IMG/VR virus record: IMGVR_UViG_2740892427_000001
Reading direction: 5' to 3' (one strand)
DNA: 64,000 nucleotides
Source of the DNA: a virus
Lineage: Duplodnaviria > Heunggongvirae > Uroviricota > Caudoviricetes
Below the pieces are notes generated by a model, which worked only from the letters and a program-made list of their open reading frames with translations, had not been told where the DNA came from and ran no database searches. Position numbers and translations under genes: made by a program. Shown piece by piece: positions 394-32,069 of this stretch. Positions within the stretch are counted from its first letter, which is position 1. Every line of letters starts with the position of its first letter.

Positions 394-1494
394 ATGAGCG
401 AGTCCAAATCGCCGGATGCCCTGAGAGCAATGGTAGCCGGTACGCTGGCTAATTTTCAGCACCCAACCCTGAAACACAACCTGACTACGCTTAAAGCGTT
501 ACACCATGTTGCGTTGATGGATGACACACTGCATGTCGAACTAATCATGCCTTTCGTGTGGAATAAGCCTTTTGAAGACCTGAAAGAGCAATGTAGTGGT
601 GATCTGCTCCGTATCACTGGCGCAAAGGCTATTGACTGGAAGCTGTCGTACAACATTGCCACGCTTAAGCGCGTCAAAAACCAACCAGGCATTAATGGTG
701 TTAAGAATATTATCGCCGTAAGCTCAGGCAAGGGCGGTGTAGGCAAATCGTCCACAGCAGTAAACTTGGCACTGGCTTTGGCTGCTGAAGGTGCGAAAGT
801 TGGTATTTTGGATGCCGATATCTATGGTCCATCAATTCCAACCATGCTGGGCGCGGAAAACCAACGTCCAACCTCACCGGACGGTACTCACATGGCACCT
901 ATCATGTCTCATGGCCTGGCAACCAACTCTATTGGTTATCTGGTCACCGACGACAATGCAATGGTGTGGCGTGGACCGATGGCCAGCAAGGCGCTGATGC
1001 AGATGTTGCAGGAAACACTGTGGCCTGATCTGGACTATCTCGTTCTCGATATGCCGCCGGGCACTGGTGATATTCAATTGACGCTGGCGCAGAACATTCC
1101 TGTAACTGGTGCGGTTGTGGTAACTACGCCGCAAGACATCGCGCTGATCGATGCGAAGAAAGGCATTGTGATGTTCGAAAAAGTCGAAGTGCCGGTACTA
1201 GGTATCGTCGAAAACATGAGTGTGCATATTTGCAGTAACTGCGGTCATCACGAGCCAATTTTTGGCACCGGTGGCGCACAGAAACTGGCCGAGAAATACA
1301 ACACGCAGTTGTTAGGCCAAATGCCACTTCATATCTCTCTTCGTGAAGATCTGGATAACGGAACACCAACCGTTATTAGTCGTCCAGATAGCGAATTTAC
1401 GGCTATTTATCGTGACCTCGCAGATCGCGTTGCTGCCCAAATGTATTGGCAAGGTGAAGTAATACCTGGCGAAATCGCATTCCGCGCAGTGTGA
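394..1494 (+). CDS. apbC: Fe-S cluster carrier P-loop ATPase Mrp/ApbC
   Basis: 366 aa ORF; deviant Walker A SGKGGVGKS; CxxC near C-terminus; N-terminus close to E. coli Mrp. Confidence 0.9.
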   Translation: MSESKSPDALRAMVAGTLANFQHPTLKHNLTTLKALHHVALMDDTLHVELIMPFVWNKPFEDLKEQCSGDLLRITGAKAIDWKLSYNIATLKRVKNQPGINGVKNIIAVSSGKGGVGKSSTAVNLALALAAEGAKVGILDADIYGPSIPTMLGAENQRPTSPDGTHMAPIMSHGLATNSIGYLVTDDNAMVWRGPMASKALMQMLQETLWPDLDYLVLDMPPGTGDIQLTLAQNIPVTGAVVVTTPQDIALIDAKKGIVMFEKVEVPVLGIVENMSVHICSNCGHHEPIFGTGGAQKLAEKYNTQLLGQMPLHISLREDLDNGTPTVISRPDSEFTAIYRDLADRVAAQMYWQGEVIPGEIAFRAV

Positions 1495-5921: not shown

Positions 5922-6302
5922 CTAATTGCCGGATAAAATGGGGTGAGGTGCTTGCCAGTAGGCTCCACCGGTCCATGTGAACCCCATGCGAATAAGAGTG
6001 TTTATTGCGGCTTTGGTAGACTCCGATTCGACACTGGCTTTTCGAAACTCTTGAACCTCTTTCGCCAACTTGTATGTAATTGTGCAGGGGACGATTGCAG
6101 CCCAGCCTTTCTCATGACTGTTAATGACCATCTGGATGTGACCATCCAGAATAGGTTGATTAGGCATGTTATTGAAAATGTCTGCCTGTTTTTGAATGTG
6201 AAGAAAAAGCCTTGCCAGCTCCATTTGCTCACTACGAGACAAGGGATTATCAAGAGGGCTTTTTGCAAAAGCGGCTATACGCTGTGCGTCAATGCCAAAC
6301 AT
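5922..6302 (-). CDS. hypothetical protein
   Basis: 126 aa ORF, stop overlaps next start. Confidence 0.45.
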   Translation of the reverse strand: MFGIDAQRIAAFAKSPLDNPLSRSEQMELARLFLHIQKQADIFNNMPNQPILDGHIQMVINSHEKGWAAIVPCTITYKLAKEVQEFRKASVESESTKAAINTLIRMGFTWTGGAYWQAPHPILSGN

Positions 6303-7006
6303 CAGCGCACCTCACCATCTTTATGGCTGGAGTTAACTTCCGCCATTAAATGTCTGACGTAATCGACAAGAGAGCCACCTGGTGGAATCTGGCATTCCTC
6401 AACTAACTGGAAGTAGATATCCGCTGCATTACGTGTATTGCTACCCGCACATATTCTTTCTTCCCGAAGTGCATGAAGCTCGTTGATCAAACGGTCACAC
6501 TCTCCGTTACGCTGATCCACAACGGCCTCAAGCTCTGCGACGCGTTCACCTGGCGTCTTACCTTCTTTGCGTTGGATGGTAACGACGAAATCGCCAATTG
6601 CAGGGACGTTGTAATCCAGCTCAAGGTAGTTTTTGGCACCGCTGCGGACGAACTCACCCGCGAACATGGTGGCGAACATCGCAGAGGCCACTTCGTCGTT
6701 GAAAAGTGACTCCAGATCTAACGGAGTCCCGGCAGCAAGAGCCTCTTTTGCTGTATCCATTGCATCCATGAACCGATCAAACTCACTAGCGCGCTTTTCC
6801 AGGTCTTTCCATTGCTCGCTCCAACGTTTGGCAACGAAGTCTATGAATGTTTTCGCGGATTCATCAAAATCCCCCTCAAACTTAACGATGCCTTTATCAA
6901 TAATGATCTGGCCTACCGCATCCTCTGCATAACCTTTCAATGTAAACTTGAAAGGAAAATCAGAATGGCCTGTGACGTTAAAATGCTCTAACTGGAGGTT
7001 GTTCAT
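6302..7006 (-). CDS. hypothetical protein
   Basis: 234 aa ORF with conserved start context catgtgtttttc. Confidence 0.5.
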   Translation of the reverse strand: MNNLQLEHFNVTGHSDFPFKFTLKGYAEDAVGQIIIDKGIVKFEGDFDESAKTFIDFVAKRWSEQWKDLEKRASEFDRFMDAMDTAKEALAAGTPLDLESLFNDEVASAMFATMFAGEFVRSGAKNYLELDYNVPAIGDFVVTIQRKEGKTPGERVAELEAVVDQRNGECDRLINELHALREERICAGSNTRNAADIYFQLVEECQIPPGGSLVDYVRHLMAEVNSSHKDGEVR

Positions 7007-7067
7007 GTGTTTTTCTCTTATCGTTTAGTTATTACATTCTTACACAAATTAAGTAAGTATTTACCTA

Positions 7068-8753
7068 TCATTTAACGCGTTTGAAAACGTATACGCTGAC
7101 TGTGATCCCTGTGTCTTCAAACTCGTTGGTAAACGACTTCCCTCTGGCATAAACGTAATTATCCATCGTCATCCAGTCCAGTATTGGCGCAGTGCCCGGC
7201 AATACTGCTACAAGACGCCCGCCGACTTTCAGATGCCCCAGCGCAGCCAGCGTGTGCTCTCTATGACGACCAAGCGAGTACGGCGGGTTCATAACGATTT
7301 TGTCGAACTGATAACCTACGTTGTCCTCAGACCACTTTATGAAGTCGCAGCAAATCGTGTTCGTATACCCTTTTCCGCGCAGGATATCAGCGAAGAGAGG
7401 TGCGATTTCTATGCAGGTAACATCTTCCAGATCGGCGTTAATATAGGCCAGAAGATCCCCACGTCCGGCTTGAGGCTCCAACAACTTCTCACCAGGCTTC
7501 AATTCAGTGGCTCTGGCAACGTACTCAGCAATCAAGCGTGGGGTAGGGTAGAACTGGTGTGATTTTGTATCCGGTATTAAACCGGTAGCCACAATCGTAT
7601 TTAGCGTATGGCCGATCTCATACGGGAACTGCCAGTGCTTTTTCTCCTGCACGCCGCCAATGAAGCTCAGTGTGCGCTCAAGCTCTTCCACCTGCGACTT
7701 CTGGAGAGCTGAATCAGAGAAGTACCATACGCCTTTGTCTTTGCTAAATCGCCCGTCACGAAGCGCAGTGCGAACCGGCACGGAGATCGTCTTCTGGATT
7801 AACCCGAACTGCTTTGGTGCCCGTGTTTTTGGCGCAGTTCGGCATGGCGCGGGAATTGCAGCAGGCATACTGTAAGCCAGCACCTCATTCAACTTCCAGG
7901 CCACGTCAGGATGTATTTCAAAGTGAACGTTGCCGTTCTTGAACATCTTCACGCGCATCAGATTTCCATCGACGTTCATCCAGTCACCGGTCTGGCAGTC
8001 GTTTGCCCGATACGCAGCTGATAGCACCTCAGCAGTGCGGTTGATGGTAATAAATTCTTTGTGCGCGAAGAAATGAAGCAAGACACGCAGATCGTCGATA
8101 TAGTCCTCTTTGCGATAGTTCACACTAACGCTGTCCCGCCAGAAATCAGAAATGCAGTCAGCGATTATCAGACGTTCGCTGAAACCGTTTGTCTTATTTG
8201 TCTTGTGCGCAGGACTCAGCGCCTTAAACAAGCCATACACGCGCTCAGAGAGATATTTGTGCCTGTCATTCAGCAAATTAAGCATCGTGGGTATGACCGT
8301 TTCTGCTTTGAACTCCGGTACACCAACGAACTCTTTAACCTTCATCTGGTAGCCGGTTCTGTCAGTTTTGATGACTTCCTGTTTGCCCTCTATAAACTGC
8401 TCGCGCCACTCATCTCGACGGGAAGCTGGCATGATCAGCAAAACGTTAGTCATGTCCGTGACCTTCCTCCAGTACTCGGCCCAAATATTCTGTTTCACCC
8501 ATTCCAGATCGACTTTATCCAACCAACCTCGATTTAAACGCGAGCGATCTTCATCTGGTCGATGGTTTAGTCTCAGCAGGCGATTAATCATGTTGTGGCG
8601 TTCGTCGCCATAAACGAAGTCGTGTACCTGATACATGAAGGCGATCTCTTTCTCGCACTCGGCCACAATTTCGTGGATGACGTTCATTTCCTGCCGATAG
8701 TCGATAGCAGTGTTTGAGTTGGCATCGTCGATGATGGAAAGGGCTGTATTCAT
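7068..8753 (-). CDS. DNA N6-adenine methyltransferase fused to a large uncharacterized N-terminal domain
   Basis: C-terminal third carries FYPTP, EPQAGRGDL (AdoMet-binding) and NPPY motifs; N-terminal ~380 aa unassigned. Confidence 0.65.
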   Translation of the reverse strand: MNTALSIIDDANSNTAIDYRQEMNVIHEIVAECEKEIAFMYQVHDFVYGDERHNMINRLLRLNHRPDEDRSRLNRGWLDKVDLEWVKQNIWAEYWRKVTDMTNVLLIMPASRRDEWREQFIEGKQEVIKTDRTGYQMKVKEFVGVPEFKAETVIPTMLNLLNDRHKYLSERVYGLFKALSPAHKTNKTNGFSERLIIADCISDFWRDSVSVNYRKEDYIDDLRVLLHFFAHKEFITINRTAEVLSAAYRANDCQTGDWMNVDGNLMRVKMFKNGNVHFEIHPDVAWKLNEVLAYSMPAAIPAPCRTAPKTRAPKQFGLIQKTISVPVRTALRDGRFSKDKGVWYFSDSALQKSQVEELERTLSFIGGVQEKKHWQFPYEIGHTLNTIVATGLIPDTKSHQFYPTPRLIAEYVARATELKPGEKLLEPQAGRGDLLAYINADLEDVTCIEIAPLFADILRGKGYTNTICCDFIKWSEDNVGYQFDKIVMNPPYSLGRHREHTLAALGHLKVGGRLVAVLPGTAPILDWMTMDNYVYARGKSFTNEFEDTGITVSVYVFKRVK

Positions 8754-8856
8754 AATTGCACCATTAAGAAGTGATTTGTTTAATGGTGCAATTATTTCAA
8801 AAATGAAAAGGTACTAAATAGAAATAAACAGGCAATCCTTCAAATAAAGGCATTGG

Positions 8857-9471
8857 CTAATCATACTTGGAGGTATTTATCACCAGAATTTTGTTTGTAT
8901 AAATCTTCTTAATATCCCATGTGACATTACCGGAATACCATTGACCGTTATATACTTGGTTTCCAGTTGCACCTGTCATTGTTACATAGACAGGTCTGTC
9001 GTAATCGGTTCGTCTATAGTTATATACCCCAACCATAGCAGGCATTACCGCACATGGATACCCCATATCTATTGTAAATTGAGGGTCAGAAATAGTGATA
9101 AGTTTCGCATCAAGGGGCATCATCTCACCGTGATACACCATTGCGCCTGCGCTGTTATACATGGCAATGCCATAGCCAGAATGTGGTAACACCATATCAG
9201 AAAAAGCATAAACTATTATTGTTCCGGGGCTACCATTTACCTGATGCAATCTGAGAGCATTGTATCCGTTACTATGCTCATGAATAAACATCATGTTCGC
9301 CTTATTACTGCTTTTTATGAAGAAAAAGCATGATTTGTTTGATGGGATTGATGTTTGAAAAACAGAACCTTTAGATGCAGACATTGTCCCTTTATTAATC
9401 AGATTTTGCGGAGTAAATTCTGGACTCATCCACAAACTTCCATCTGATTGAGTAATTGACATCCCGAACAT
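8857..9471 (-). CDS. hypothetical Tyr/Gly/Asn-rich protein in AT-rich island
   Basis: ORF in track extends to 9528; ATG at 9471 lies 2 nt after the stop of the upstream gene (TAATTATG), so two tandem genes rather than a frameshift. Confidence 0.4.
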   Translation of the reverse strand: MFGMSITQSDGSLWMSPEFTPQNLINKGTMSASKGSVFQTSIPSNKSCFFFIKSSNKANMMFIHEHSNGYNALRLHQVNGSPGTIIVYAFSDMVLPHSGYGIAMYNSAGAMVYHGEMMPLDAKLITISDPQFTIDMGYPCAVMPAMVGVYNYRRTDYDRPVYVTMTGATGNQVYNGQWYSGNVTWDIKKIYTNKILVINTSKYD

Positions 9472-9473
9472 AA

Positions 9474-9755
9474 TTATCCCCAGTATGTGTATATGTAAGA
9501 ACCAAGCCCCGTATATAAATTTGACCAACTAACCGTATTTCCATTAATAGTAACATTTGGAACAGGTAAATTGATGTAGTTGTCGTTGTTAAGAGGCATT
9601 AATGACCACACGGCATGTAGTGATTTACCCGGTGGCGGATTAGAGTACGTCTTAGAGCCTGATGACGCCGTAAATCGATCAAGAAAAAAAATAGGTGTAA
9701 GGAAGCCAGTAACGTTAATTCCTTTATTGTTGTAAATCCCTGTACCGTATGCCAT
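9474..9755 (-). CDS. hypothetical protein in AT-rich island
   Basis: 93 aa ORF; locally low GC versus flanks. Confidence 0.4.
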   Translation of the reverse strand: MAYGTGIYNNKGINVTGFLTPIFFLDRFTASSGSKTYSNPPPGKSLHAVWSLMPLNNDNYINLPVPNVTINGNTVSWSNLYTGLGSYIYTYWG

Positions 9756-9809
9756 TTTTCACCCTTGTTTTTATCAACACAATATGGCCGATCATGCGGC
9801 CATATCAGA

Positions 9810-10379
9810 TCAATTAGAGCTTTGAAAGACTTTGTGTGGTTGTGTTGCGAGGTTATGTCGATGGCTTAACTCACGCATCATGTCTTCAAGGCGACTCTTT
9901 GTGTCGTCGAGTTGGTCGGCCATTGCTCCCAAAAGCTGACGAACGGCCATCGGATCATCGCTGTTTAGTGATGGCATTTTATAACCCGCCTGAGAAGACA
10001 TAAGATTGAACGCAGACATCAACATCGTTAGAGAGGATTTAAGCCCAGCAATTTCACGATCTTTGCTGGCAATAATCGCCTCACTCTTGTTAGTGTCATC
10101 AGTTCGTTGAGTCTCGCTCACCATATCCAAAGTCGCCTGCAACTTATCAGCGCGCTCTTTTTCAGCAAGATAATGAACACCGAAATGATGTGCTAAAGCT
10201 ACAACCTGAGTTGGCTCTTCAAAGGTGGACTCAAAATTAAGTGCTGTAACCACTCTCTCAAATATGGAAACGTCTTCTATTCCTCGAAGAATGGCTAACA
10301 TTTTGACCAGTTCATTAGCATCCATTTCTTCGAATAAGGCGTTTTGTTCATCAGCTATCGCTTTGCATTTCTTGCACAT
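9810..10379 (-). CDS. hypothetical protein
   Basis: 189 aa ORF; conserved leader motif ttaaacaagttgttttc 16 bp upstream. Confidence 0.5.
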   Translation of the reverse strand: MCKKCKAIADEQNALFEEMDANELVKMLAILRGIEDVSIFERVVTALNFESTFEEPTQVVALAHHFGVHYLAEKERADKLQATLDMVSETQRTDDTNKSEAIIASKDREIAGLKSSLTMLMSAFNLMSSQAGYKMPSLNSDDPMAVRQLLGAMADQLDDTKSRLEDMMRELSHRHNLATQPHKVFQSSN

Positions 10380-10676
10380 GTGTTTTTCCTAATGCTTAAA
10401 CAAGTTGTTTTCTTATTGGCTTTATTGTGATGTGGCATAAAAGGGGAGCAAGCTAAACGTAAAGGTGCAAACTCTCTATTTCGGTCAACGAAACACAAGG
10501 GCCATTTGGCCCTTGTCATTAACACGTTGCTTTACGGACTAGCGGATAAGCGAAGTAGATCGCCAAACCAATGAGGACGCCATCAGAAATGACAGACATC
10601 ATCTTTCCCGTAAAATCCACCAACACCGCCATCACCAGAAGAGCAATGACGATCACAAGCCGGAATCTCTCAAGCA

Positions 10677-11102
10677 TTAGAGATAAGCATCCAGTGACAA
10701 CTGAAGCGCCTGGGCGATCTTTTTCAGTGCCTGCTCTTCTTGTTCACCAATGCCATCCTGATCGGCAATATCAAGGCACAGACACAGAACATCGACCGCC
10801 TCTGGAGTACCCGCAATATCAGAAAGCTCACGAATAGCCTGTGCATTAGCAGAACGAGGGGACGCTTCGTAACGAGCACGGATATTGGCGCTCATTTGGG
10901 CAATTTCACCAGCAAACGGAGAAAACGCAGGCAGAGCTGCAATTGTCTTCTCAAGAATGGCAATTTCTTTTGCGTCACATGTGCCGTCGGCATAGGAGAT
11001 CATGTACGCGCCCCACACGGTGGCCTCAACCGCATCACGGTTCTCCATTTTTTTGACTTCGATAACTGCTTTACGAGTTTTCTTTTTGAAGAAACCTAAC
11101 AT
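10677..11102 (-). CDS. TerB-like domain protein
   Basis: 141 aa; resembles TerB/DjlA-N type helical domain (low-certainty motif recognition). Confidence 0.4.
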   Translation of the reverse strand: MLGFFKKKTRKAVIEVKKMENRDAVEATVWGAYMISYADGTCDAKEIAILEKTIAALPAFSPFAGEIAQMSANIRARYEASPRSANAQAIRELSDIAGTPEAVDVLCLCLDIADQDGIGEQEEQALKKIAQALQLSLDAYL

Positions 11103-11195
11103 GTGTTTTCCTTTTGTTATTTGTCAAAACAAGTTGTTTTATAGTTTCATAAATTGCTTACGCAAAGATGGTCAATGCATATGCACTAACAGCCG

Positions 11196-11384
11196 TCAGA
11201 AATAACCAAGTACCGAACCGACTGGAAAAACAAAAATCCCAACTACACGAGCCAAGGTCATGCCAGCCTGAAACTGGAGATCGCCAGAGCAAACAAGTTT
11301 TATAATGTTCGATACCCAACCGGCGGCCATGAGGGCAAGAATTGCCAGCCAAATTTTTCCAAAGTGATTTGAAAACCAGTTCAT
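11196..11384 (-). CDS. small membrane protein
   Basis: 62 aa, two hydrophobic segments; start overlaps upstream stop. Confidence 0.4.
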   Translation of the reverse strand: MNWFSNHFGKIWLAILALMAAGWVSNIIKLVCSGDLQFQAGMTLARVVGIFVFPVGSVLGYF

Positions 11385-11632
11385 ACAACCGCCTTAGTCA
11401 CAGCATGATCCTGAGTAACCGGATGAACTTGAGGTATCGCATCCACCGTCATCCCATCCAGAGTGACAGGACGCTCTACTGGAGTGGTGGTAATTGTCGT
11501 CGACGGAGGTGTGGTGATGGATGAACCCGGCATCAAAAGGCTCTGGCCGGCTGGAACGGCTACCGTCGCCAGTGAAACTATAATGAGAACGTAGGCCATT
11601 GGTTTCAGCCTCTTTCTTTGAAAATTTTCCAT
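11381..11632 (-). CDS. small secreted/membrane protein (alternative frame to 11394..11888)
   Basis: Hydrophobic N-terminal segment MAYVLIIVSLATVAVPAG; overlaps another long ORF in a different frame, so only one is likely real. Confidence 0.3.
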   Translation of the reverse strand: MENFQRKRLKPMAYVLIIVSLATVAVPAGQSLLMPGSSITTPPSTTITTTPVERPVTLDGMTVDAIPQVHPVTQDHAVTKAVV

Positions 11633-11888
11633 TCGAACTGTCCTTGTTGTTTTTCTCCTTCACTAAAGGCCGTGTACTTTTCGCTTCGCGTGAAGAACCA
11701 GAGGCAACAATCGCCCCCACGTTCGCAACAACTGACGCTTGATTATCTAAACGTTCATTCAGCAACCGAACGGTAGTCTCTAGTTCATCAAGACGTGACA
11801 TAACACGACCGCTAAACAATTCGGCCAAAATTTGACGTAAAGAACGAGGACGTTTAGTTGCAGAAGTGAAATAGGTTTGACGTGCCAT
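11394..11888 (-). CDS. hypothetical protein (N-terminal ~90 aa convincing, C-terminal low-complexity part doubtful)
   Basis: 164 aa ORF; C-terminal S/G/C/H-rich stretch looks like out-of-frame read-through. Confidence 0.3.
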   Translation of the reverse strand: MARQTYFTSATKRPRSLRQILAELFSGRVMSRLDELETTVRLLNERLDNQASVVANVGAIVASGSSREAKSTRPLVKEKNNKDSSNGKFSKKEAETNGLRSHYSFTGDGSRSSRPEPFDAGFIHHHTSVDDNYHHSSRASCHSGWDDGGCDTSSSSGYSGSCCD

Positions 11889-12033
11889 GTGGACTCCATC
11901 CAGTGTCAGAAAGAGTTGCGGCTGGCGATTGCCAGCCGCCTTTCTCGTTCCATCCTGGAACTGTGTCTTACCGACACATTGTCATCCTGACGCTGATAAG
12001 ATACATGATTTAAAATGATAGGTAAACACTTAC

Positions 12034-12678
12034 TTACTGCTTGTTATAAACAAAACCAATATCTTTCTTGTGAGGCATATCTGCTGCTGAAAAAGCTGCG
12101 ATCTTCGCGAGTCGATCACATATTTCATTTTCACGATGCCCGGCGTGACCTTTAACCCACTTCCAGCGAACATTATGTCGACTTGCGGCCTCATCCAGAC
12201 GTTTCCACAGATCAACATTCTTTACCGGTTTTTTATCAGAAGTCATCCATCCATTACGTTTCCACCATTTCATCCACTGTGTCATGCCGTTTTTCAGATA
12301 CTGGCTATCAGAGTACAAAATAACGTTGCATGGATATTTCAAACGCTCCAGCCCGATAAGTGCGCCCATCATCTCCATGCGGTTATTGGTGGTGCTATGA
12401 AAACCATCTGAGAACTCGCGTTCCTCACCACGATACTGGAGAACGATACCGTAACCGCCCGGGCCACCCGGATTTTTAAGGCAAGAGCCATCACTAAAGA
12501 TTTTCACGGTTTTGAGCTGGGGATTGAACTCTACGACAGGCGTTGTGGGATTGGTGCGGGGAGAATTTTTGTTTTTGGCTTTTTTGCGAGTTTTTGCTTG
12601 CGATCGGGCTGGTGTCTTCGTCGTCATATAAACTCCTGAATCAAGCGCCGCGCCGATTTTTTCCTCGCGCGTGCGCAC
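12034..12678 (-). CDS. rnhA: RNase H (RNase HI family); true start may be internal
   Basis: Core KIFSDGSC...NRMEMMG...[14 protein letters not shown] matches RNase HI; first ~20 codons overlap a GC palindrome and may be 5' UTR. Confidence 0.75.
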
Positions 12679-12699
12679 ACGCGTGCGTGTTAATAATTA

Positions 12700-13200
12700 T
12701 TAAAATAAACAAATTACTTCCCAGAACAGGTTTTTATAAACCTGAACTGAACGAACGAAGTGAGTGAAGTTCACCTCGAACGAAGTGAGAGGTTGTCTTT
12801 TCAGGTAATACTCTCCCAGGGAGGTGAGTATAAAATTCCTCACCAACCTGGTCGTTTCATAACCTGAAAAGCTATGGTCTAAGTCTACTGCCAGCTTAGA
12901 CTTGGGAAGTTATGGATGACAGCACCCCAGAACCGAGATCTTCCCACACTTTATGAAGGGGAGTACTGGATTCAACCTCTCGAAACACCCCAGACTCGAC
13001 AATCATAAAGTGACCCTTGTCTCTGCTCACTTTGGTTCCCCCTTCCCCGACACCTATACGGCACCGGTTCTACGCTGGTAGTGAGCTTTTTTAAACCTGA
13101 CGCCAGTGACGCTTACCCCCACCCATCAGGTCGAGCCTCCAGTCTACGACTGGAAACTATCATATCTTAGCACTTACAATTCACTTTATGAATAGTTTGT
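12700..13200. other. ~500-bp ORF-free island with internal direct repeats and palindromes; candidate structured RNA or replication/packaging site
   Basis: No ORF of 60 aa or more in any frame; GAACGAAGTGAG x2 flanking palindrome GTGAAGTTCAC; several 5- to 7-bp stem pairs. Confidence 0.3.
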
Positions 13201-13209
13201 ACTTATCTA

Positions 13210-13464
13210 TCATTGTGATTGATTATTTTCTCGACCATGTAGTTGAACATTCAAGGCAAACACCTCATTGATCAACTCACCTAAAAGCTGTTCAACAAGT
13301 TCGCGATGCTCTCCAAGATGCAAGCACTTAATTGCCCACTCGTACAAGTTGAAAGCCTGCTCACGATCTTTCATCATTTCACGAGCCTGGGCCAGAAAAT
13401 CGCTCTCTACGAGCGCAACGACATTAGTCGGGTATGACATGTTGGTTTCCTTAAAGTGGTTCAT
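13210..13464 (-). CDS. hypothetical protein
   Basis: 84 aa ORF. Confidence 0.4.
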   Translation of the reverse strand: MNHFKETNMSYPTNVVALVESDFLAQAREMMKDREQAFNLYEWAIKCLHLGEHRELVEQLLGELINEVFALNVQLHGRENNQSQ

Positions 13465-13545
13465 AAAATCGATTTTAAAGCGTCTGGGAAGGGGTTCTAG
13501 TGGATTCTGTAGTGATGTTCAGGTCTGGAGTCTCTGATACAAAAC

Positions 13546-13604
13546 AGCCTGCTTCCGTATATTAATAATTAATATGTAGTTATTTATATATACAGAAGCA
13601 GGCT
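13546..13604. terminator. long hairpin AGCCTGCTTCCGTATAT / ATATACAGAAGCAGGCT with AT-rich loop; one of two copies of this element
   Basis: 17-bp stems with one mismatch; second copy at 61112..61169. Confidence 0.5.
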
Positions 13605-13625
13605 AATTACAGACGCCAGAACAAA

Positions 13626-14219
13626 CTAAGCAGCCTTCTTTGATGGTCTTTTTTTCCTGATCACATTCGCAGGATCATACCCTCCCAGACTTTTCATGAC
13701 GTCCAAAGGGATCTTGCTTATAGAGTGCCCAGCGTCCTGACAGAATCCTCGAAAAACAACGAGCATACTGCCACCGGGGTTGATGTTTACTTCTACCTGA
13801 CCCAAATTGACGTCAGGCTCGACAAACGCTACGCGGCCACCAGACAGAATAATCGTCTCATTCGCATACTCTGTTGCACGCTCATACCACTTTGTATCGA
13901 GGGATTGAGGAATTAGCATCACTGTTGTAACTCCGCGAGCCTGCTCACGTATAGCAGCATCAATCCAGGGGGAGATTTTGGAGTAGGGTGGATTGAGGAA
14001 GGCAATTGTACCTGGCTGTCCCCATTCAGATTTCAAAGCATCACGCTCAATGCCTATGAAATTAGGCAGCTTTGCGTTGTCCTTGTTGCAGGCAACGTCA
14101 ACATCAAATGTCACTCCAAGATAACGTTGAATGGCAGAAAACAGCCAATCAGGTGTTCTCCAGAGGTCACGAAGAGAGTTGTCGCGCTTTCGCTGTTTGA
14201 TTTTTTCGGCTGCAATCAT
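13626..14219 (-). CDS. phage-type DNA N6-adenine methyltransferase
   Basis: 197 aa; NPPY motif (FLNPPYS) and phage Dam-like layout. Confidence 0.65.
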   Translation of the reverse strand: MIAAEKIKQRKRDNSLRDLWRTPDWLFSAIQRYLGVTFDVDVACNKDNAKLPNFIGIERDALKSEWGQPGTIAFLNPPYSKISPWIDAAIREQARGVTTVMLIPQSLDTKWYERATEYANETIILSGGRVAFVEPDVNLGQVEVNINPGGSMLVVFRGFCQDAGHSISKIPLDVMKSLGGYDPANVIRKKRPSKKAA

Positions 14220-14402
14220 CTTCTTTCTCGATAGGTAAGTGATTACCTATTTTTGCATTTGATTTTATGTCTGGCAATCAAATAAAACGCGCCAGAAATG
14301 CAAACGAGAAGCTCTCTGGCGCGTTTTTGTGGTGCTGGGTATGTGATTGGCTTACCCAGCACTATAAAGCTCTCTATGGGCTTTATTTTCAGTAGGGGAA
14401 CG

Positions 14403-15212
14403 TCATCCAATAGTGTACTCCGCGACAAACTTCTTAACGATCGGTGATTCTTCGTTCAATGTTAGATTTCCACCGTCTCTAACGGCAATTCCTGTCGCTG
14501 GAAATACAGCCATCATTTGCCCAGCCTGAGTTGACGCAGTGTTAAGCGGATACGGTTTTTCTGGATTGCTCATTAAAGCAATCTTAATACTATTACTTGT
14601 AGCCTTCTTTTCTGTGAGAAGGTGTCTCATGGAAATTACCGTGTAAACACTAATATCTGGACCTCCGCTAAACCAATTAAGAAGGTTTAATATCTTATCC
14701 TTTGCTTTGACAGGCGCGTTATCGTAAGCGTCTAAGAAAATATCTTTTTCTAAGCCCGCTTTATTGAAAAACGAATCATCTTTATCACTTAAAGTAAAAC
14801 GAGGACCTCTTGCAGTACGAGCTTTTTTATTTGTATTGCTATCATTTGACTGTTGAACTTTTAATTCATCATTAACCTCAACACACTCTTCAACCTCAAT
14901 AAATCCCAATTGTTCTGGCTCGTTTTCGGCAGATTCAACACTTTCAGCGTTAATTACGTTTATAGGCTCATGCGCTAACTCCAACTCATTTAAAGCAGAG
15001 CTGAAATCACCTGCTTTTTCTTCATTGAACAGTTCTTCGGCAACATCATCAGAACTCATGGCTACGCCAGCATCGAGGCCGAGCAGCAGATCGTCAATAT
15101 CATCAGTATTTTCAACCTGTGCGGCTTTCTTTACTGGTTCATCAAGTGATTGCAACATGGCTGTCAGCTCGTCCAGATCATCATTTGTCATTACATTTTC
15201 AACCGAACTCAT
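14403..15212 (-). CDS. acidic hypothetical protein
   Basis: 269 aa, D/E-rich N-terminal half. Confidence 0.5.
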   Translation of the reverse strand: MSSVENVMTNDDLDELTAMLQSLDEPVKKAAQVENTDDIDDLLLGLDAGVAMSSDDVAEELFNEEKAGDFSSALNELELAHEPINVINAESVESAENEPEQLGFIEVEECVEVNDELKVQQSNDSNTNKKARTARGPRFTLSDKDDSFFNKAGLEKDIFLDAYDNAPVKAKDKILNLLNWFSGGPDISVYTVISMRHLLTEKKATSNSIKIALMSNPEKPYPLNTASTQAGQMMAVFPATGIAVRDGGNLTLNEESPIVKKFVAEYTIG

Positions 15213-30271: not shown

Positions 30272-30358
30272 AATCGTTTTTTCAGTAGTTATTGGCCGAT
30301 GCTACGATAACTCATTAGGCATACCTTAATCTGCATTTGCCTGTTTTACTTATCCCAG

Positions 30359-30806
30359 TTATCCACTGGATAGATCCAAATAAGAGATCCCAAGTAAGAT
30401 CAAATAGAAGATCCAAAGAGATCCCCGATCGCCTCTAGCCGTTGCGGTTACTGGTCTGAAAGGGTGTTGCCATCCACTATGGAGAGCAAAGAAACCTCTG
30501 TAGAGAGCTGAATAACCGCTATGAAGAGTAAAACAACCACTCTGGAGAGCTGTATATATCCACTGTAGAGAGTAGAGCACATTGTCTTTTATGGATAACT
30601 TAATGACTTAATTCTTCATTAACATACTGATATACATAGATATATTTTAAACTCTACTCTTAGTCATGATTCTTATGTCCTTAAATATCCACAGAAGAGT
30701 AGAGTTACCTGTTCTTGAAATCCTCTGATTTTATCCACAGGCCCGATCCAGTAATTCAGATCACAAAGAGAACCAAAGAGACCCATAAAGACCCAATAAG
30801 ATCCCC
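30359..30806. promoter_or_regulatory. origin-type region: DnaA boxes and two GATC-rich clusters
   Basis: DnaA box-like sites at 30359..30367, 30685..30693 and perfect TTATCCACA at 30731..30739; GATC clusters at ~30373..30430 and ~30752..30806. Confidence 0.5.
30472..30573 (+). repeat. iteron array A (5 copies, 21-bp period, consensus AWCCRCTNTRGAGAGY)
   Basis: Copies at 30472, 30493, 30514, 30535, 30558. Confidence 0.75.
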
Positions 30807-30851
30807 GCCCACCTCAAACCGTTGCGCCATCTGCCTTCAGACATGATCGAT

Positions 30852-30973
30852 ATCCACTATAGAGAGCGAATAATCCACTATAGGGAGCAAAGCAACCACT
30901 ATAGAGAGGAGAAAAACCACTATAGACGGTAGGATAACCGCTGTGATGAGTGCTACTATCCACTGTAATCAGC
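30852..30973 (+). repeat. iteron array B (6 copies, 21-bp period) immediately upstream of repA
   Basis: Copies at 30852, 30873, 30894, 30915, 30936, 30958. Confidence 0.8.
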
Positions 30974-31013
30974 AAAGGCCACCAAAGCCGTCGAATAACA
31001 AGAGACATTTGGA

Positions 31014-32069
31014 ATGAGCGAAAACGGCAATAAAAACATAGCGATCGTTGAAGCATTTTCAGAAACAGATAAAAAGACAGGCGAAGTTGTTACGTTGGTT
31101 CCTAACACTAATAACACTGTTCAGCCTGTTGCTTTGATGCGTCTGGGCCTCTTCGTTCCGACGCTGAAATCGACATCCAGAGGAAGAAAGGGGCAAATGG
31201 TCTCTATGGATGCCTCTGCTGAACTCAAACAGCTGTCTCTGGCAAAAGCCGAAGGGTACGAAGACATAAGGATCTCTGGCCTTCGGCTTGATATGGATAA
31301 CGACTTTAAAACGTGGGTGGGAATAATCCACGCGTTTGCCAAACACAAGGTCGTTGGCGATACTGTCACGTTGCCGTTCGTTGAGTTTGTAAGGCTGTGT
31401 GGCATTCCGACCGCCAGGTCATCAGCGAAGTTACGCAAACGCCTGGACAGTTCGCTAAGCCGTATTGCCACAAATACCATCTCGTTCCGTAGCAAAGGCT
31501 CTGATGAGTTTTACGTAACGCATCTTGTGCAAACGGCAAAATATAGTGTCAAGCACGATACGGTCGAACTGAAAGCAGATCCCAAGATTTTCGAACTCTA
31601 CCAGTTCGACAAAAAGGTTCTTCTGCAACTCCGGGCTATAAACGAACTCTCAAGAAAAGAATCCGCTCAGGCGCTTTATACTTTTATTGAAAGTTTGCCG
31701 CCTGATCCGGCACCAATATCACTAGCTCGTTTACGCGCCAGACTTAATCTGACAAGTCGCACTATTACTCAGAATGCGACGGTAAGAAAGGCTATGGAAC
31801 AGCTGCGAGAGATAGGATATCTCGATTACACGGAAGTTAAGCGCGGAAACTCGGTCTACTTCATCATCCACTATAGGCGGCCAAAGTTACGCCAGGCACA
31901 AATATCAACAAAAATCGATAATGATGAGACGGAATATAGCCTCCCAGATGAGAATCAAGATGACATTATCGACGTTGTGCCTGACGAAAAAGAAGGCAAA
32001 ATGGTCATGTTGAGTAAAGAAGAACTGGCGCTTCTCGAAGAGTTGCGCAAGGCAAAGACTCGCAAATAG
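31014..32069 (+). CDS. repA: P1/RepFIB-type replication initiator RepA
   Basis: Blocks [51 protein letters not shown] match P1 RepA from memory; flanked by iterons. Confidence 0.85.

What the first reader, a model, noticed from the sequence alone, without database searches (positions are those of the whole stretch)
7068..8753. Adenine methyltransferase fused to a ~380-aa uncharacterized N-terminal domain, plus a second stand-alone Dam-like methylase
The 561-aa protein has a complete N6-adenine MTase module (FYPTP, EPQAGRGDL, NPPY) only in its C-terminal third. A separate 197-aa phage Dam-type methylase is at 13626..14219. Two methylases with no cognate nuclease suggest anti-restriction or epigenetic control roles, and the N-terminal domain may add target recognition or another activity.
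Basis: partly seen in the sequence, partly recalled or inferred. Interest (0 to 1): 0.45.

Follow-up and report, generated by a model that had tools for sequence, protein, structure and literature searches.

The report
DUF4942-fused orphan adenine methyltransferase
This is a common, already-catalogued gene of SSU5-type phage-plasmids that joins an adenine DNA methylase to "DUF4942", the same uncharacterised module that many conjugative plasmids encode as the first gene to enter a new host. It most likely helps the element escape host restriction, but nobody has tested what it does.

Summary

It is not new. The window is an SSU5/pHCM2-type phage-plasmid. The exact protein is public, SSU5 annotates both genes as DNA methyltransferases, and the fusion is the standard architecture of a family of about 600 clusters (Pfam DUF4942, phrog_6263).

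What I add is that the protein has two separable modules. Module A (aa 1-305, DUF4942) has no solved fold relative. It is as conserved as the catalytic core, so it does not behave like a variable target-recognition domain. It also exists alone as YdiA/YgfB, a family enriched in plasmid leading regions, typically the first gene after oriT. Module B (aa ~321-561) is the methylase type found in DarB-like "polyvalent" anti-restriction proteins. Natural chimeras swap the modules at aa ~300.

Best reading: an early-expressed counter-restriction methylase in which DUF4942 is an accessory establishment module. The function is inferred, not shown.

The parts
7068..8753 (-). Whole gene: 561-aa DUF4942-methyltransferase fusion (homolog of SSU5_095, member of phrog_6263)
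   Evidence: ORF list. phrog_6263 matches full length at 9e-300. 92.5% aa identity to SSU5 and 99.6% to Escherichia phage CMS-2020a. The exact sequence is in public collections.
7839..8753 (-). Module A, aa 1-305: variable acidic helical N-terminus (aa 1-85) plus the conserved DUF4942 core. This is the unit that also occurs as the stand-alone YdiA/YgfB proteins.
7869..8336 (-). Pfam DUF4942 (PF13708) match, aa 140-295. Includes the conserved motifs LSxxHxTN (8196-8219) and HxExHPD (7905-7925).
   Evidence: Pfam E 1.6e-20, 74 bits against a cut-off of 25. Invariant residues listed. Coordinates verified.
7569..7793 (-). Variable small alpha/beta subdomain, aa 321-395, which co-inherits with the MTase. 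Candidate specificity or DNA-contact element.
   Evidence: Lowest conservation in the protein. phrog_9133 matches aa 329-560 as one unit. In chimeras it follows the MTase allele. No Pfam hit.
7071..7568 (-). Gamma-class N6-adenine methyltransferase fold, aa 396-561: motif X QFYPTP (7539-7556), motif I LEPQAGRGDL (7452-7481), motif IV NPPY (7278-7289). No C-terminal TRD.
13626..14219 (-). Second, stand-alone 197-aa phage Dam-type N6-adenine methyltransferase (NPPY at 13983-13994; homolog of SSU5_088)
   Evidence: Pfam Dam PF05869 5.4e-38; TIGR01712 at 113.6 bits against a cut-off of 97.05. phrog_111 2.8e-65. SSU5 annotation.

Best explanation
The 561-aa protein is an orphan, element-encoded N6-adenine DNA methyltransferase of an SSU5-type phage-plasmid, built from two separable modules.

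Module B (aa ~321-561) is a minimal EcoKI/TaqI-like gamma-class catalytic unit with no TRD of its own. It is the same kind of unit found in DarB-like polyvalent anti-restriction proteins.

Module A (aa 1-305, DUF4942) is a conserved accessory module, not a variable sequence reader. As a free-standing protein (YdiA/YgfB), the same module is typically the first gene that conjugative plasmids deliver into a recipient.

Proposed mechanism: the protein is made early from the long minus-strand DNA-metabolism/early gene block. It methylates adenines on the element's DNA (and the host's), so that resident restriction systems do not cut it. DUF4942 supplies a conserved establishment function: DNA or host-factor engagement that brings or holds the TRD-less methylase on newly arrived or replicating DNA. 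Any sequence preference would come from the variable aa 321-395 and 526-561 segments.

Shown: the fold, the motifs, the modularity, the orphan status, the mobile-element contexts, and the leading-region enrichment of the free module. Inferred: DNA as substrate, the protective role, and what DUF4942 does.

The 197-aa Dam-type enzyme is a separate, ordinary phage methylase. GATC specificity is expected from the family but was not tested.
For: MTase fold and gamma-class motif order X-I-IV with the TP cap and NPPY. This matches the description of the polyvalent/DarB MTase clade in PMC5512222.

The MTase core matches segments inside 1.2-3.9-kaa phage proteins and a 'DarB-like antirestriction' gene.

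Modularity rests on three lines:
- Stand-alone DUF4942 proteins end exactly at aa ~301 and have no MTase motifs.
- The natural chimeras P0044 and P0045 switch parent at aa ~300.
- phrog_9133 covers aa 329-560 only.

The DUF4942 core is as conserved as the catalytic core.

The architecture is fixed across the family. A search with aa 1-390 finds 608 clusters, nearly all of the best 150 being 500-580 aa, and 138 of 141 full-length representatives have NPP[YFW].

The contexts are mobile-element early regions. In SSU5 and in the window it sits in the nrd/thyA/DHFR/RNase H/exonuclease block. In prophages it follows repressor, replication or Ant genes. In IncHI2 plasmids it lies beside a Dam-family MTase.

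The nearest neighbours at 50 loci are most often other DNA methylases and phage early genes, and no endonuclease family is listed.

The free DUF4942 module lies beside oriT/relaxosome genes, co-oriented with ardA, psiB and ssb, in IncI, IncK2/Z, IncL/M and an MPF_F plasmid. It occurs on 4,953 of 72,556 plasmids, 3,854 of them conjugative.

In Samuel et al. 2024 the DUF4942 families are leading-region enriched: family 24 with FDR p = 0 and median position 1 from oriT, and family 76 with p = 2e-100. The same paper lists orphan MTases as a main leading-region function.
Against: No biochemical or methylome evidence for any family member was found in the searchable literature.

The top structural neighbours include RNA m6A enzymes (METTL5, KsgA, Erm) at scores equal to the DNA enzymes, so fold alone does not fix the substrate.

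The gene lies in the DNA-metabolism block and not among virion genes, so DarB-like co-injection is unlikely. A methylase made after entry protects late, unless the DNA was already modified in the previous host.

DUF4942's role is purely inferential. The fused subfamily keeps polar residues (H183, D221, R223, D262, H281) that the free proteins have lost, so the two forms may not do the same thing.

GATC is not avoided in the window, and I made no test of depletion of other motifs.
Confidence: 0.55

Rival explanations
1. One reading: the N-terminal domain is a target-recognition domain that gives the methylase a defined DNA sequence specificity, making it a classical sequence-specific Type II orphan MTase with an N-terminal TRD.
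For: The catalytic module has no C-terminal TRD (the protein ends ~70 aa after NPPY), so some other part must contact DNA. The N-terminal region is always present in the fused family.
Confidence: 0.15
2. Epigenetic regulator of the element's own life cycle: methylation (by this enzyme and/or the Dam-type one) controls replication initiation, packaging or the lysis-lysogeny decision, and does not protect from restriction.
For: The window has a candidate iteron origin with six GATC sites in 58 bp upstream of a Rep3-type initiator gene (P about 1e-4 to 4e-4). The arrangement recalls methylation-dependent origins such as P1 oriR (own knowledge). Both MTases sit in the replication/DNA-metabolism block.
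Against: The GATC cluster bears on the Dam-type enzyme or host Dam, not on the DUF4942 fusion, whose specificity is unknown. Fused homologs occur in unrelated prophages and in IncHI2 plasmids with different replication systems. The free DUF4942 module is a leading-region gene.
Confidence: 0.15
3. The substrate is not DNA: the protein is an RNA (rRNA or tRNA m6A) or protein methyltransferase used for host takeover, with DUF4942 as the RNA- or protein-binding part.
Against: PADLOC Type II MTase and mad2 profiles and PHROG 'DNA methyltransferase' families match much better (1e-10 to 1e-19). The module is the one found in DarB-like proteins. The nearest neighbours are repeatedly other DNA methylases.
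Confidence: 0.1
4. It is half of a defence or RM-like system (Type IIG-like or MADS-like) in which DUF4942 is the effector or nuclease, serving superinfection exclusion rather than counter-defence.
For: The PADLOC mad2 (MADS) profile matches the MTase module at 8.5e-16. DUF4942 has invariant His/Asp/Glu residues and an alpha-beta-beta-beta-alpha segment at aa 240-295 that could in principle host a catalytic site.
Against: The mad2 match covers only the MTase core (profile positions 265-401 of 492). DUF4942 shows no nuclease fold match. No partner gene is conserved. Several of the candidate catalytic residues are lost in the free-standing proteins. The module's genomic niche is anti-defence regions.
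Confidence: 0.05

Closest known systems
SSU5_095 'DNA methyltransferase' of Salmonella phage SSU5; pHCM2 'YdiA'; PHROG phrog_6263; NCBI 'DUF4942 domain-containing protein'
   Same: Same gene: 92.5% aa identity to SSU5 and the same position in the early/DNA-metabolism block, with a Dam-type MTase a few kb away. Full-length phrog_6263 match. The exact sequence is public.
   Different: Nothing substantive. The window copy has a lineage-specific hairpin over its start codon.
[not shown]
   Same: Homologous to aa ~46-301 (BLASTP 2e-11; alignment A3). Both belong to Pfam DUF4942. Both are found on mobile elements alongside anti-restriction genes.
   Different: They are 282-286 aa, with no MTase module or motifs, at only 17-20% identity. 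They lack several residues that are invariant in the fused subfamily (H183, D221/R223 partly, D262, E279, H281).
MTase module of DarB-like / polyvalent proteins (phage P1 DarB archetype; Iyer et al. 2017, PMC5512222)
   Same: EcoKI/TaqI-like gamma-class core with the TP cap and NPP(Y/F). PHROG profiles of giant phage proteins match aa ~396-522 at 1e-14 to 1e-19, and a 'DarB-like antirestriction' gene is hit. The biological theme is counter-restriction on invading DNA.
   Different: No LPD36 domain and no SF2/SNF2 helicase. The protein is 561 aa with DUF4942 as the partner. It is encoded among early/DNA-metabolism genes and not virion genes, so it is probably not injected with the DNA.
M.TaqI / M.BseCI / CamA (solved gamma-class N6-adenine DNA MTases)
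   Different: Those enzymes carry a large C-terminal TRD. This protein ends shortly after the catalytic fold and has an unrelated N-terminal module instead.
M.EcoGIX / M.BceJIII (plasmid leading-region, single-strand-specific MTases; PMC7736820)
   Same: Possible functional analogy: an orphan m6A MTase that protects an incoming element from restriction.
   Different: They are beta-class enzymes with DPPY, and the IncI ParB-like leading-region protein I compared shows no sequence similarity. This is analogy only, not homology.
Phage Dam family PF05869 / TIGR01712 (phage T1, HP1 and Stx-phage Dam-type enzymes)
   Same: The 197-aa protein scores above both curated cut-offs.
   Different: None seen. 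GATC specificity is assumed from the family (own knowledge) and was not tested.

Membership tests
Pfam DUF4942 (PF13708) | Score above the Pfam gathering cut-off | tested here: met
   74 bits against a cut-off of 25, aa 140-295. Stand-alone plasmid proteins score 172-173 bits.
Gamma-class (EcoKI/TaqI-like) N6-adenine DNA methyltransferase | Linear motif order X (xFxTP) - I (FxGxG-like) - IV (NPPY/F) | tested here: met
   QFYPTP at aa 400-405, LEPQAGRGDL at 425-434, NPPY at 489-492. All are conserved in 30 homologs.
Gamma-class (EcoKI/TaqI-like) N6-adenine DNA methyltransferase | Class I Rossmann MTase fold superposable on solved members | tested here: met
   [not shown]
Gamma-class (EcoKI/TaqI-like) N6-adenine DNA methyltransferase | Pfam N6_Mtase (PF02384) above the gathering cut-off | tested here: not met
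   13.4 bits for the whole protein and 16.6 bits for the C-terminal 241 aa, against a cut-off of 20.4. It is a divergent subfamily.
Gamma-class (EcoKI/TaqI-like) N6-adenine DNA methyltransferase | Target-recognition domain C-terminal to the catalytic domain (or a separate HsdS subunit) | tested here: not met
   The protein ends ~70 aa after NPPY, and the last strands complete the Rossmann sheet. No HsdS-like neighbour was found.
Gamma-class (EcoKI/TaqI-like) N6-adenine DNA methyltransferase | Transfers methyl to N6 of adenine in DNA | not testable with these tools
   Needs a methylome or an enzyme assay. No published data were found.
Type II / IIG restriction-modification system | Linked or fused restriction endonuclease | tested here: not met
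   No nuclease family in 10 neighbours or in the 33-kb PGAP annotation. At 50 related loci there is no conserved neighbour and no endonuclease among the 25 listed families. The N-terminal module has no nuclease fold match.
DarB-like / polyvalent-protein MTase-helicase dyad | MTase flanked by an N-terminal LPD36 and a C-terminal SF2/SNF2 helicase in a giant protein | tested here: not met
   The protein is 561 aa with no helicase, and Pfam gives no LPD hit for aa 321-561. Only the MTase core is shared.
M.EcoGIX-type single-strand-specific plasmid MTase | Beta-class MTase with a DPPY motif, homologous to M.EcoGIX/M.BceJIII | tested here: not met
   This protein is gamma-class with NPPY. M.EcoGIX is beta-class with DPPY. 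There is no BLASTP similarity to the ParB-like leading-region protein of an IncI plasmid.
MADS defence system (mad2 methyltransferase) | Full-length match to mad2 together with the other mad genes | tested here: not met
   The match covers only profile positions 265-401 of 492. The neighbours have no defence-type Pfam domains, but they were not scanned against PADLOC.
Phage Dam family (PF05869 / TIGR01712), for ORF 13626..14219 | Scores above the curated cut-offs of both models | tested here: met
   PF05869: 130.8 bits against 28.1. TIGR01712: 113.6 bits against 97.05.
Phage Dam family (PF05869 / TIGR01712), for ORF 13626..14219 | Methylates GATC | not testable with these tools
   Inferred from the family only. 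GATC is not depleted in the window: 285 sites against 261 +/- 13 expected.

The most novel reading that the evidence does not exclude
DUF4942 is a new kind of establishment module that acts directly at newly entered or newly replicating DNA. It might bind that DNA or a host replisome or repair factor, or it might block a host nuclease. In the fused proteins it would serve to couple a TRD-less, low-specificity adenine methylase to that DNA. That would make it an 'entry-coupled' methylation device, analogous in logic to M.EcoGIX-PolI or DarB but built from unrelated parts. If so, the fusion would act as a Rosetta stone, revealing the function of YdiA/YgfB, the gene that typically enters first in thousands of IncF/IncI/IncL-type resistance plasmids.
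Probability: 0.25. Interest if true: 0.6.

Novelty: already known. Interest (0 to 1): 0.3.

Why it matters

The wider family deserves some attention. SSU5/pHCM2-type phage-plasmids are common in E. coli (251 of 5,426 complete genomes carry this gene), Salmonella and Klebsiella, and their host range depends on evading restriction. The DUF4942 module occurs on about 7% of sequenced plasmids and is typically the first gene transferred during conjugation, yet it has no known function and no solved structural relative.

The fused form gives a concrete, testable handle on that module. It also shows that the 'methyltransferase' label sometimes attached to free-standing YdiA/YgfB proteins is probably an annotation carry-over, since those proteins have no MTase module.

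Tried and rejected
1. M.EcoGIX relationship, recalled from memory. Rejected: M.EcoGIX is beta-class with DPPY, and the IncI ParB-like leading-region protein shows no similarity.

3. AFDB50 fold search: the library was unavailable.

4. LPD36 or a helicase partner as in DarB: absent.

5. A conserved partner gene around fused homologs: none. 212 flanking ORFs fall into 187 clusters. My simple ORF caller is noisy in GC-rich genomes, and a few target genes were mis-called.

6. Literature on DUF4942, PF13708, ygfB, pHCM2/SSU5 methylases and phage-plasmid orphan MTases: only table mentions, and no functional study.

7. GATC avoidance as a clue to Dam function: no depletion.

8. The start-codon hairpin as a conserved regulator: rejected, because it is absent from SSU5, Kluyvera, Morganella, Klebsiella and IncHI2 homologs.
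Full report
**1. What the window is**

The region 6000-15000 is 99% identical over its whole length to ~105-113 kb, non-mobilizable E. coli plasmids. It matches 711 plasmid records from Escherichia, Klebsiella, Salmonella, Enterobacter and others. The annotated context is nrdAB, thymidylate synthase, DHFR, a 3'-5' exonuclease, RNase HI, TerB-like and Ea22-like genes. The protein is 92.5% identical to Salmonella phage SSU5 and 99.6% identical to Escherichia phage CMS-2020a. The element is therefore an SSU5/pHCM2-type phage-plasmid. The gene occurs in 251 of 5,426 complete E. coli genomes, with 247 of 256 places on plasmids. The exact 561-aa sequence is already public, on 36 contigs in a 1,384-member cluster, under the name 'DUF4942 domain-containing protein'.

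**2. Checking the observation**

- ORF 7068..8753(-) encodes 561 aa.
- The quoted motifs are real and confined to the C-terminus: QFYPTP at aa 400-405, LEPQAGRGDL at 425-434 and NPPY at 489-492. They are invariant or nearly so in 30 homologs of 33-99% identity.
- Curated sequence models only graze the MTase part. Pfam N6_Mtase scores 13.4 bits against a cut-off of 20.4, and the KsgA/Erm models are far below theirs.
- PADLOC and PHROG MTase profiles match aa ~396-522 at 1e-10 to 1e-19.
- The motif order X-I-IV and the 'TP' cap are those of the EcoKI/TaqI-like gamma class. This is the MTase that Iyer et al. describe in DarB-like polyvalent proteins (PMC5512222).
- ORF 13626..14219(-) is a phage Dam-type enzyme, above the cut-offs of both PF05869 and TIGR01712.
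- These are the only two ORFs in the window with a (D/N/S)PP(Y/F/W/H) motif.

**3. The fusion is the family's standard architecture**

An exhaustive search with aa 1-390 alone finds 608 clusters (at 50% identity) at E up to 1e-3. Nearly all of the best 150 are 500-580 aa. Of 141 full-length representatives, 138 have NPP[YFW] near the C-terminus, with NPPF in 114 and NPPY in 22. Full-length homologs occur in these places:

- SSU5-like elements of many Enterobacterales
- Aeromonas and Pseudomonas phages
- prophages of Gamma-, Beta- and Alphaproteobacteria
- IncHI2 plasmids (563 aa, 31% identity, E 1e-87)

SSU5 annotates both genes as 'DNA methyltransferase' (SSU5_095 and SSU5_088).

**4. Anatomy: two separable modules**

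(a) Conservation. The DUF4942 core (aa 86-320) is as conserved as the catalytic core (aa 396-525), with mean top-residue frequencies of 0.63-0.65 against 0.63. The variable parts are aa 1-85, 321-395 and 526-561, at 0.45-0.50.

(b) Stand-alone forms. The DUF4942 core alone hits 4,953 of 72,556 plasmid records by tblastn, 3,854 of them conjugative. The IncI protein YgfB (282 aa) and the IncL/M (pOXA-48-like) protein (286 aa) align to aa ~46-301. They terminate at the P-x-A-[IL]-P motif that closes module A. They hit Pfam DUF4942 at 1e-50/5e-51 and have no MTase motif.

(c) Natural chimeras. P0044 is ~95% identical to the window protein up to aa 300, and then 100% identical to the Klebsiella-type protein P0078. 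P0078 is only ~50% identical to the window protein over aa 321-561. The switch occurs at aa ~295-320. P0045 behaves the same way.

(d) A 1,259-position PHROG profile matches aa 329-560 as a unit.

So module A is aa 1-305, and module B is aa ~321-561: the variable alpha/beta subdomain plus the MTase.

**5. What module A is not**

Residues invariant across the fused and free forms include T102, R113, E115, W116, S180, T185, N186, H277 and N289. The conserved LSxxHxTN loop is modelled with low confidence, with residues 182-186 below pLDDT 50 in the full-length model. That is compatible with a flexible functional loop, but this is inference.

**6. Orphan status and context**

No nuclease or specificity subunit was found in any of these checks:

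- among 10 neighbours scanned against Pfam
- in the PGAP annotation of 33 kb of a 99%-identical plasmid
- around a Variovorax prophage copy, which is followed directly by an N6_N4 MTase
- around an Enterobacterales prophage copy, which sits after lambda-P/DnaT-like replication genes with N6_N4 and C5 MTases nearby
- around an Aeromonas phage copy, which sits after Ant
- around the IncHI2 copy, which sits beside a Dam-family MTase

In a survey of 50 fused-homolog loci drawn from one genome per species, 212 flanking ORFs fall into 187 clusters, so no partner is conserved. Among the 100 nearest same-strand neighbours, the commonest Pfam families are other DNA methylases (C5 x4, N6_N4 x3, Dam x1). 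Phage early or regulatory genes follow: Q antiterminator, NinB, SSB, DnaT and DksA/TraR. No endonuclease family is among the 25 listed, and 6 of the 31 matched families were not shown.

**7. The niche of the free DUF4942 module**

In four plasmid backbones it lies within ~1-3 kb of the relaxosome genes and is co-oriented with ardA, psiB, psiA and ssb. The backbones are IncI-gamma/K1, IncK2/Z, IncL/M and an MPF_F Rahnella plasmid. In the SRL island of Shigella it (L0010) follows KlcA, RadC and the YeeU/YeeV genes (PMC6980539).

**8. Most likely mechanism**

Shown: a TRD-less gamma-class adenine MTase module of the DarB/polyvalent type is permanently joined to a conserved module whose free form is an early-entry gene of conjugative plasmids. 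The gene is orphan and restricted to mobile elements.

Inferred: the protein methylates adenines in DNA to blunt host restriction during establishment and subsequent spread. DUF4942 contributes a conserved, non-sequence-reading function, namely engagement of incoming or replicating DNA or of a host factor. Any sequence preference sits in the variable aa 321-395 and 526-561 segments, which differ by ~50% between Escherichia- and Klebsiella-type alleles and are exchanged by recombination.

I give this reading about 0.55. The rivals are DUF4942 as a TRD (0.15), life-cycle epigenetics (0.15), a non-DNA substrate (0.10) and a defence/RM-like role (0.05).

**9. Comparison with known systems**

It is a member of Pfam DUF4942 and phrog_6263. 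By fold and motifs it belongs to the gamma-class N6A MTases, although it fails the Pfam N6_Mtase threshold and lacks a C-terminal TRD. It is not a DarB-type dyad, because it has no LPD36 and no helicase. It is not an M.EcoGIX-type enzyme, which is beta-class with DPPY. It is not a Type II/IIG RM system and not a MADS system. It may work like DarB or M.EcoGIX in purpose, which would be an analogy and not homology.

**10. Verdict**

The finding is real but ordinary, and the family is already catalogued. The guess that the N-terminal domain is a target-recognition add-on is not supported. The residual interest lies in DUF4942 itself: it is abundant and enriched in leading regions, it has no solved structural relative, and it is functionally unknown. 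The fused form offers a way to test it.

Noticed in passing
window 30356-31013, upstream of ORF 31014-32069(+): A candidate iteron-type replication origin. Six GATC sites lie within 58 bp (30373-30430) as (A)GATCC repeats ~11-12 bp apart (Poisson P about 1e-4 to 4e-4 after correction). Five 21-bp-spaced iterons follow at 30472-30570. A second, partly degenerate copy of the block (30744-30805, with some GATC changed to GAAC/GACC) is followed by about six iterons at 30852-30971. All of this lies upstream of a Rep3-type initiator gene (Pfam Rep3_N 1.3e-10). It recalls Dam-dependent origins such as P1 oriR (own knowledge), and it gives the element's Dam-type methylase, or host Dam, a possible replication-control role.
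   Followed up: partly
window 8754-8793 (minus-strand mRNA), abutting the ATG at 8753: A perfect 14-bp inverted repeat, AATTGCACCATTAA-N12-TTAATGGTGCAATT. In RNA it forms a 16-bp stem (-20.6 kcal/mol, z about -6) that buries the GGUG Shine-Dalgarno-like element and the first two bases of the start codon of the DUF4942-MTase gene. It could be a translational block or an operator. It is present in the window and in a 99%-identical E. coli plasmid, but not in SSU5, Kluyvera, Morganella, Klebsiella or IncHI2 homologs, so it is lineage-specific.
   Followed up: partly
window 8047-8078 (inside the gene); E. coli AST85 chromosome NZ_AP043644.1 2998337-2998369 (L011:1501-1533): A host type I-E CRISPR array next to cas1e-cas2e carries a spacer that matches the DUF4942-MTase gene at 33 of 33 nt. 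The spacer follows the first repeat at the cas2 end of the array. The protospacer is preceded by ATG (8044-8046), a functional I-E PAM (own knowledge). This is evidence that E. coli CRISPR has acquired immunity against this phage-plasmid family.
   Followed up: partly
window 394-1494(+): A full-length, host-like iron-sulfur cluster carrier gene, apbC (NCBIfam NF008669 equivalog, 759 bits against a cut-off of 348), sits on the phage-plasmid. A 99%-identical relative also carries metG (methionine-tRNA ligase) next to it. This suggests capture of a chromosomal metG-apbC segment.
   Followed up: no
P0044 / P0045 against the window protein and P0078 (alignment A1): Natural inter-lineage recombinants of the gene: Escherichia-type up to aa ~300 and Klebsiella-type from aa ~301. 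This shows that the MTase module is exchanged between phage-plasmid lineages of different host genera while the DUF4942 module is kept.
   Followed up: yes
L007:8722-9570, L009:6719-7579, L012:6722-7570, L013:4737-5597 (stand-alone DUF4942 genes): Free-standing YdiA/YgfB-type DUF4942 proteins carry 'methyltransferase' labels in several databases and in a published table. However, they contain no MTase module or motifs and end exactly where the MTase-bearing part of the fused proteins begins. The label looks like an annotation carry-over from the fused subfamily, or from an older Pfam name that I recall as Methyltransf_27 (my memory, unverified).
   Followed up: partly
window 2700-28000, minus strand: Nearly all ORFs of at least 150 aa over ~25 kb are on the minus strand (nrdAB, thyA, DHFR, exonuclease, RNase HI, both methylases, TerB-like), and the cumulative GC skew falls steadily across the block. 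This is consistent with one long co-oriented early/DNA-metabolism transcription block.
   Followed up: no
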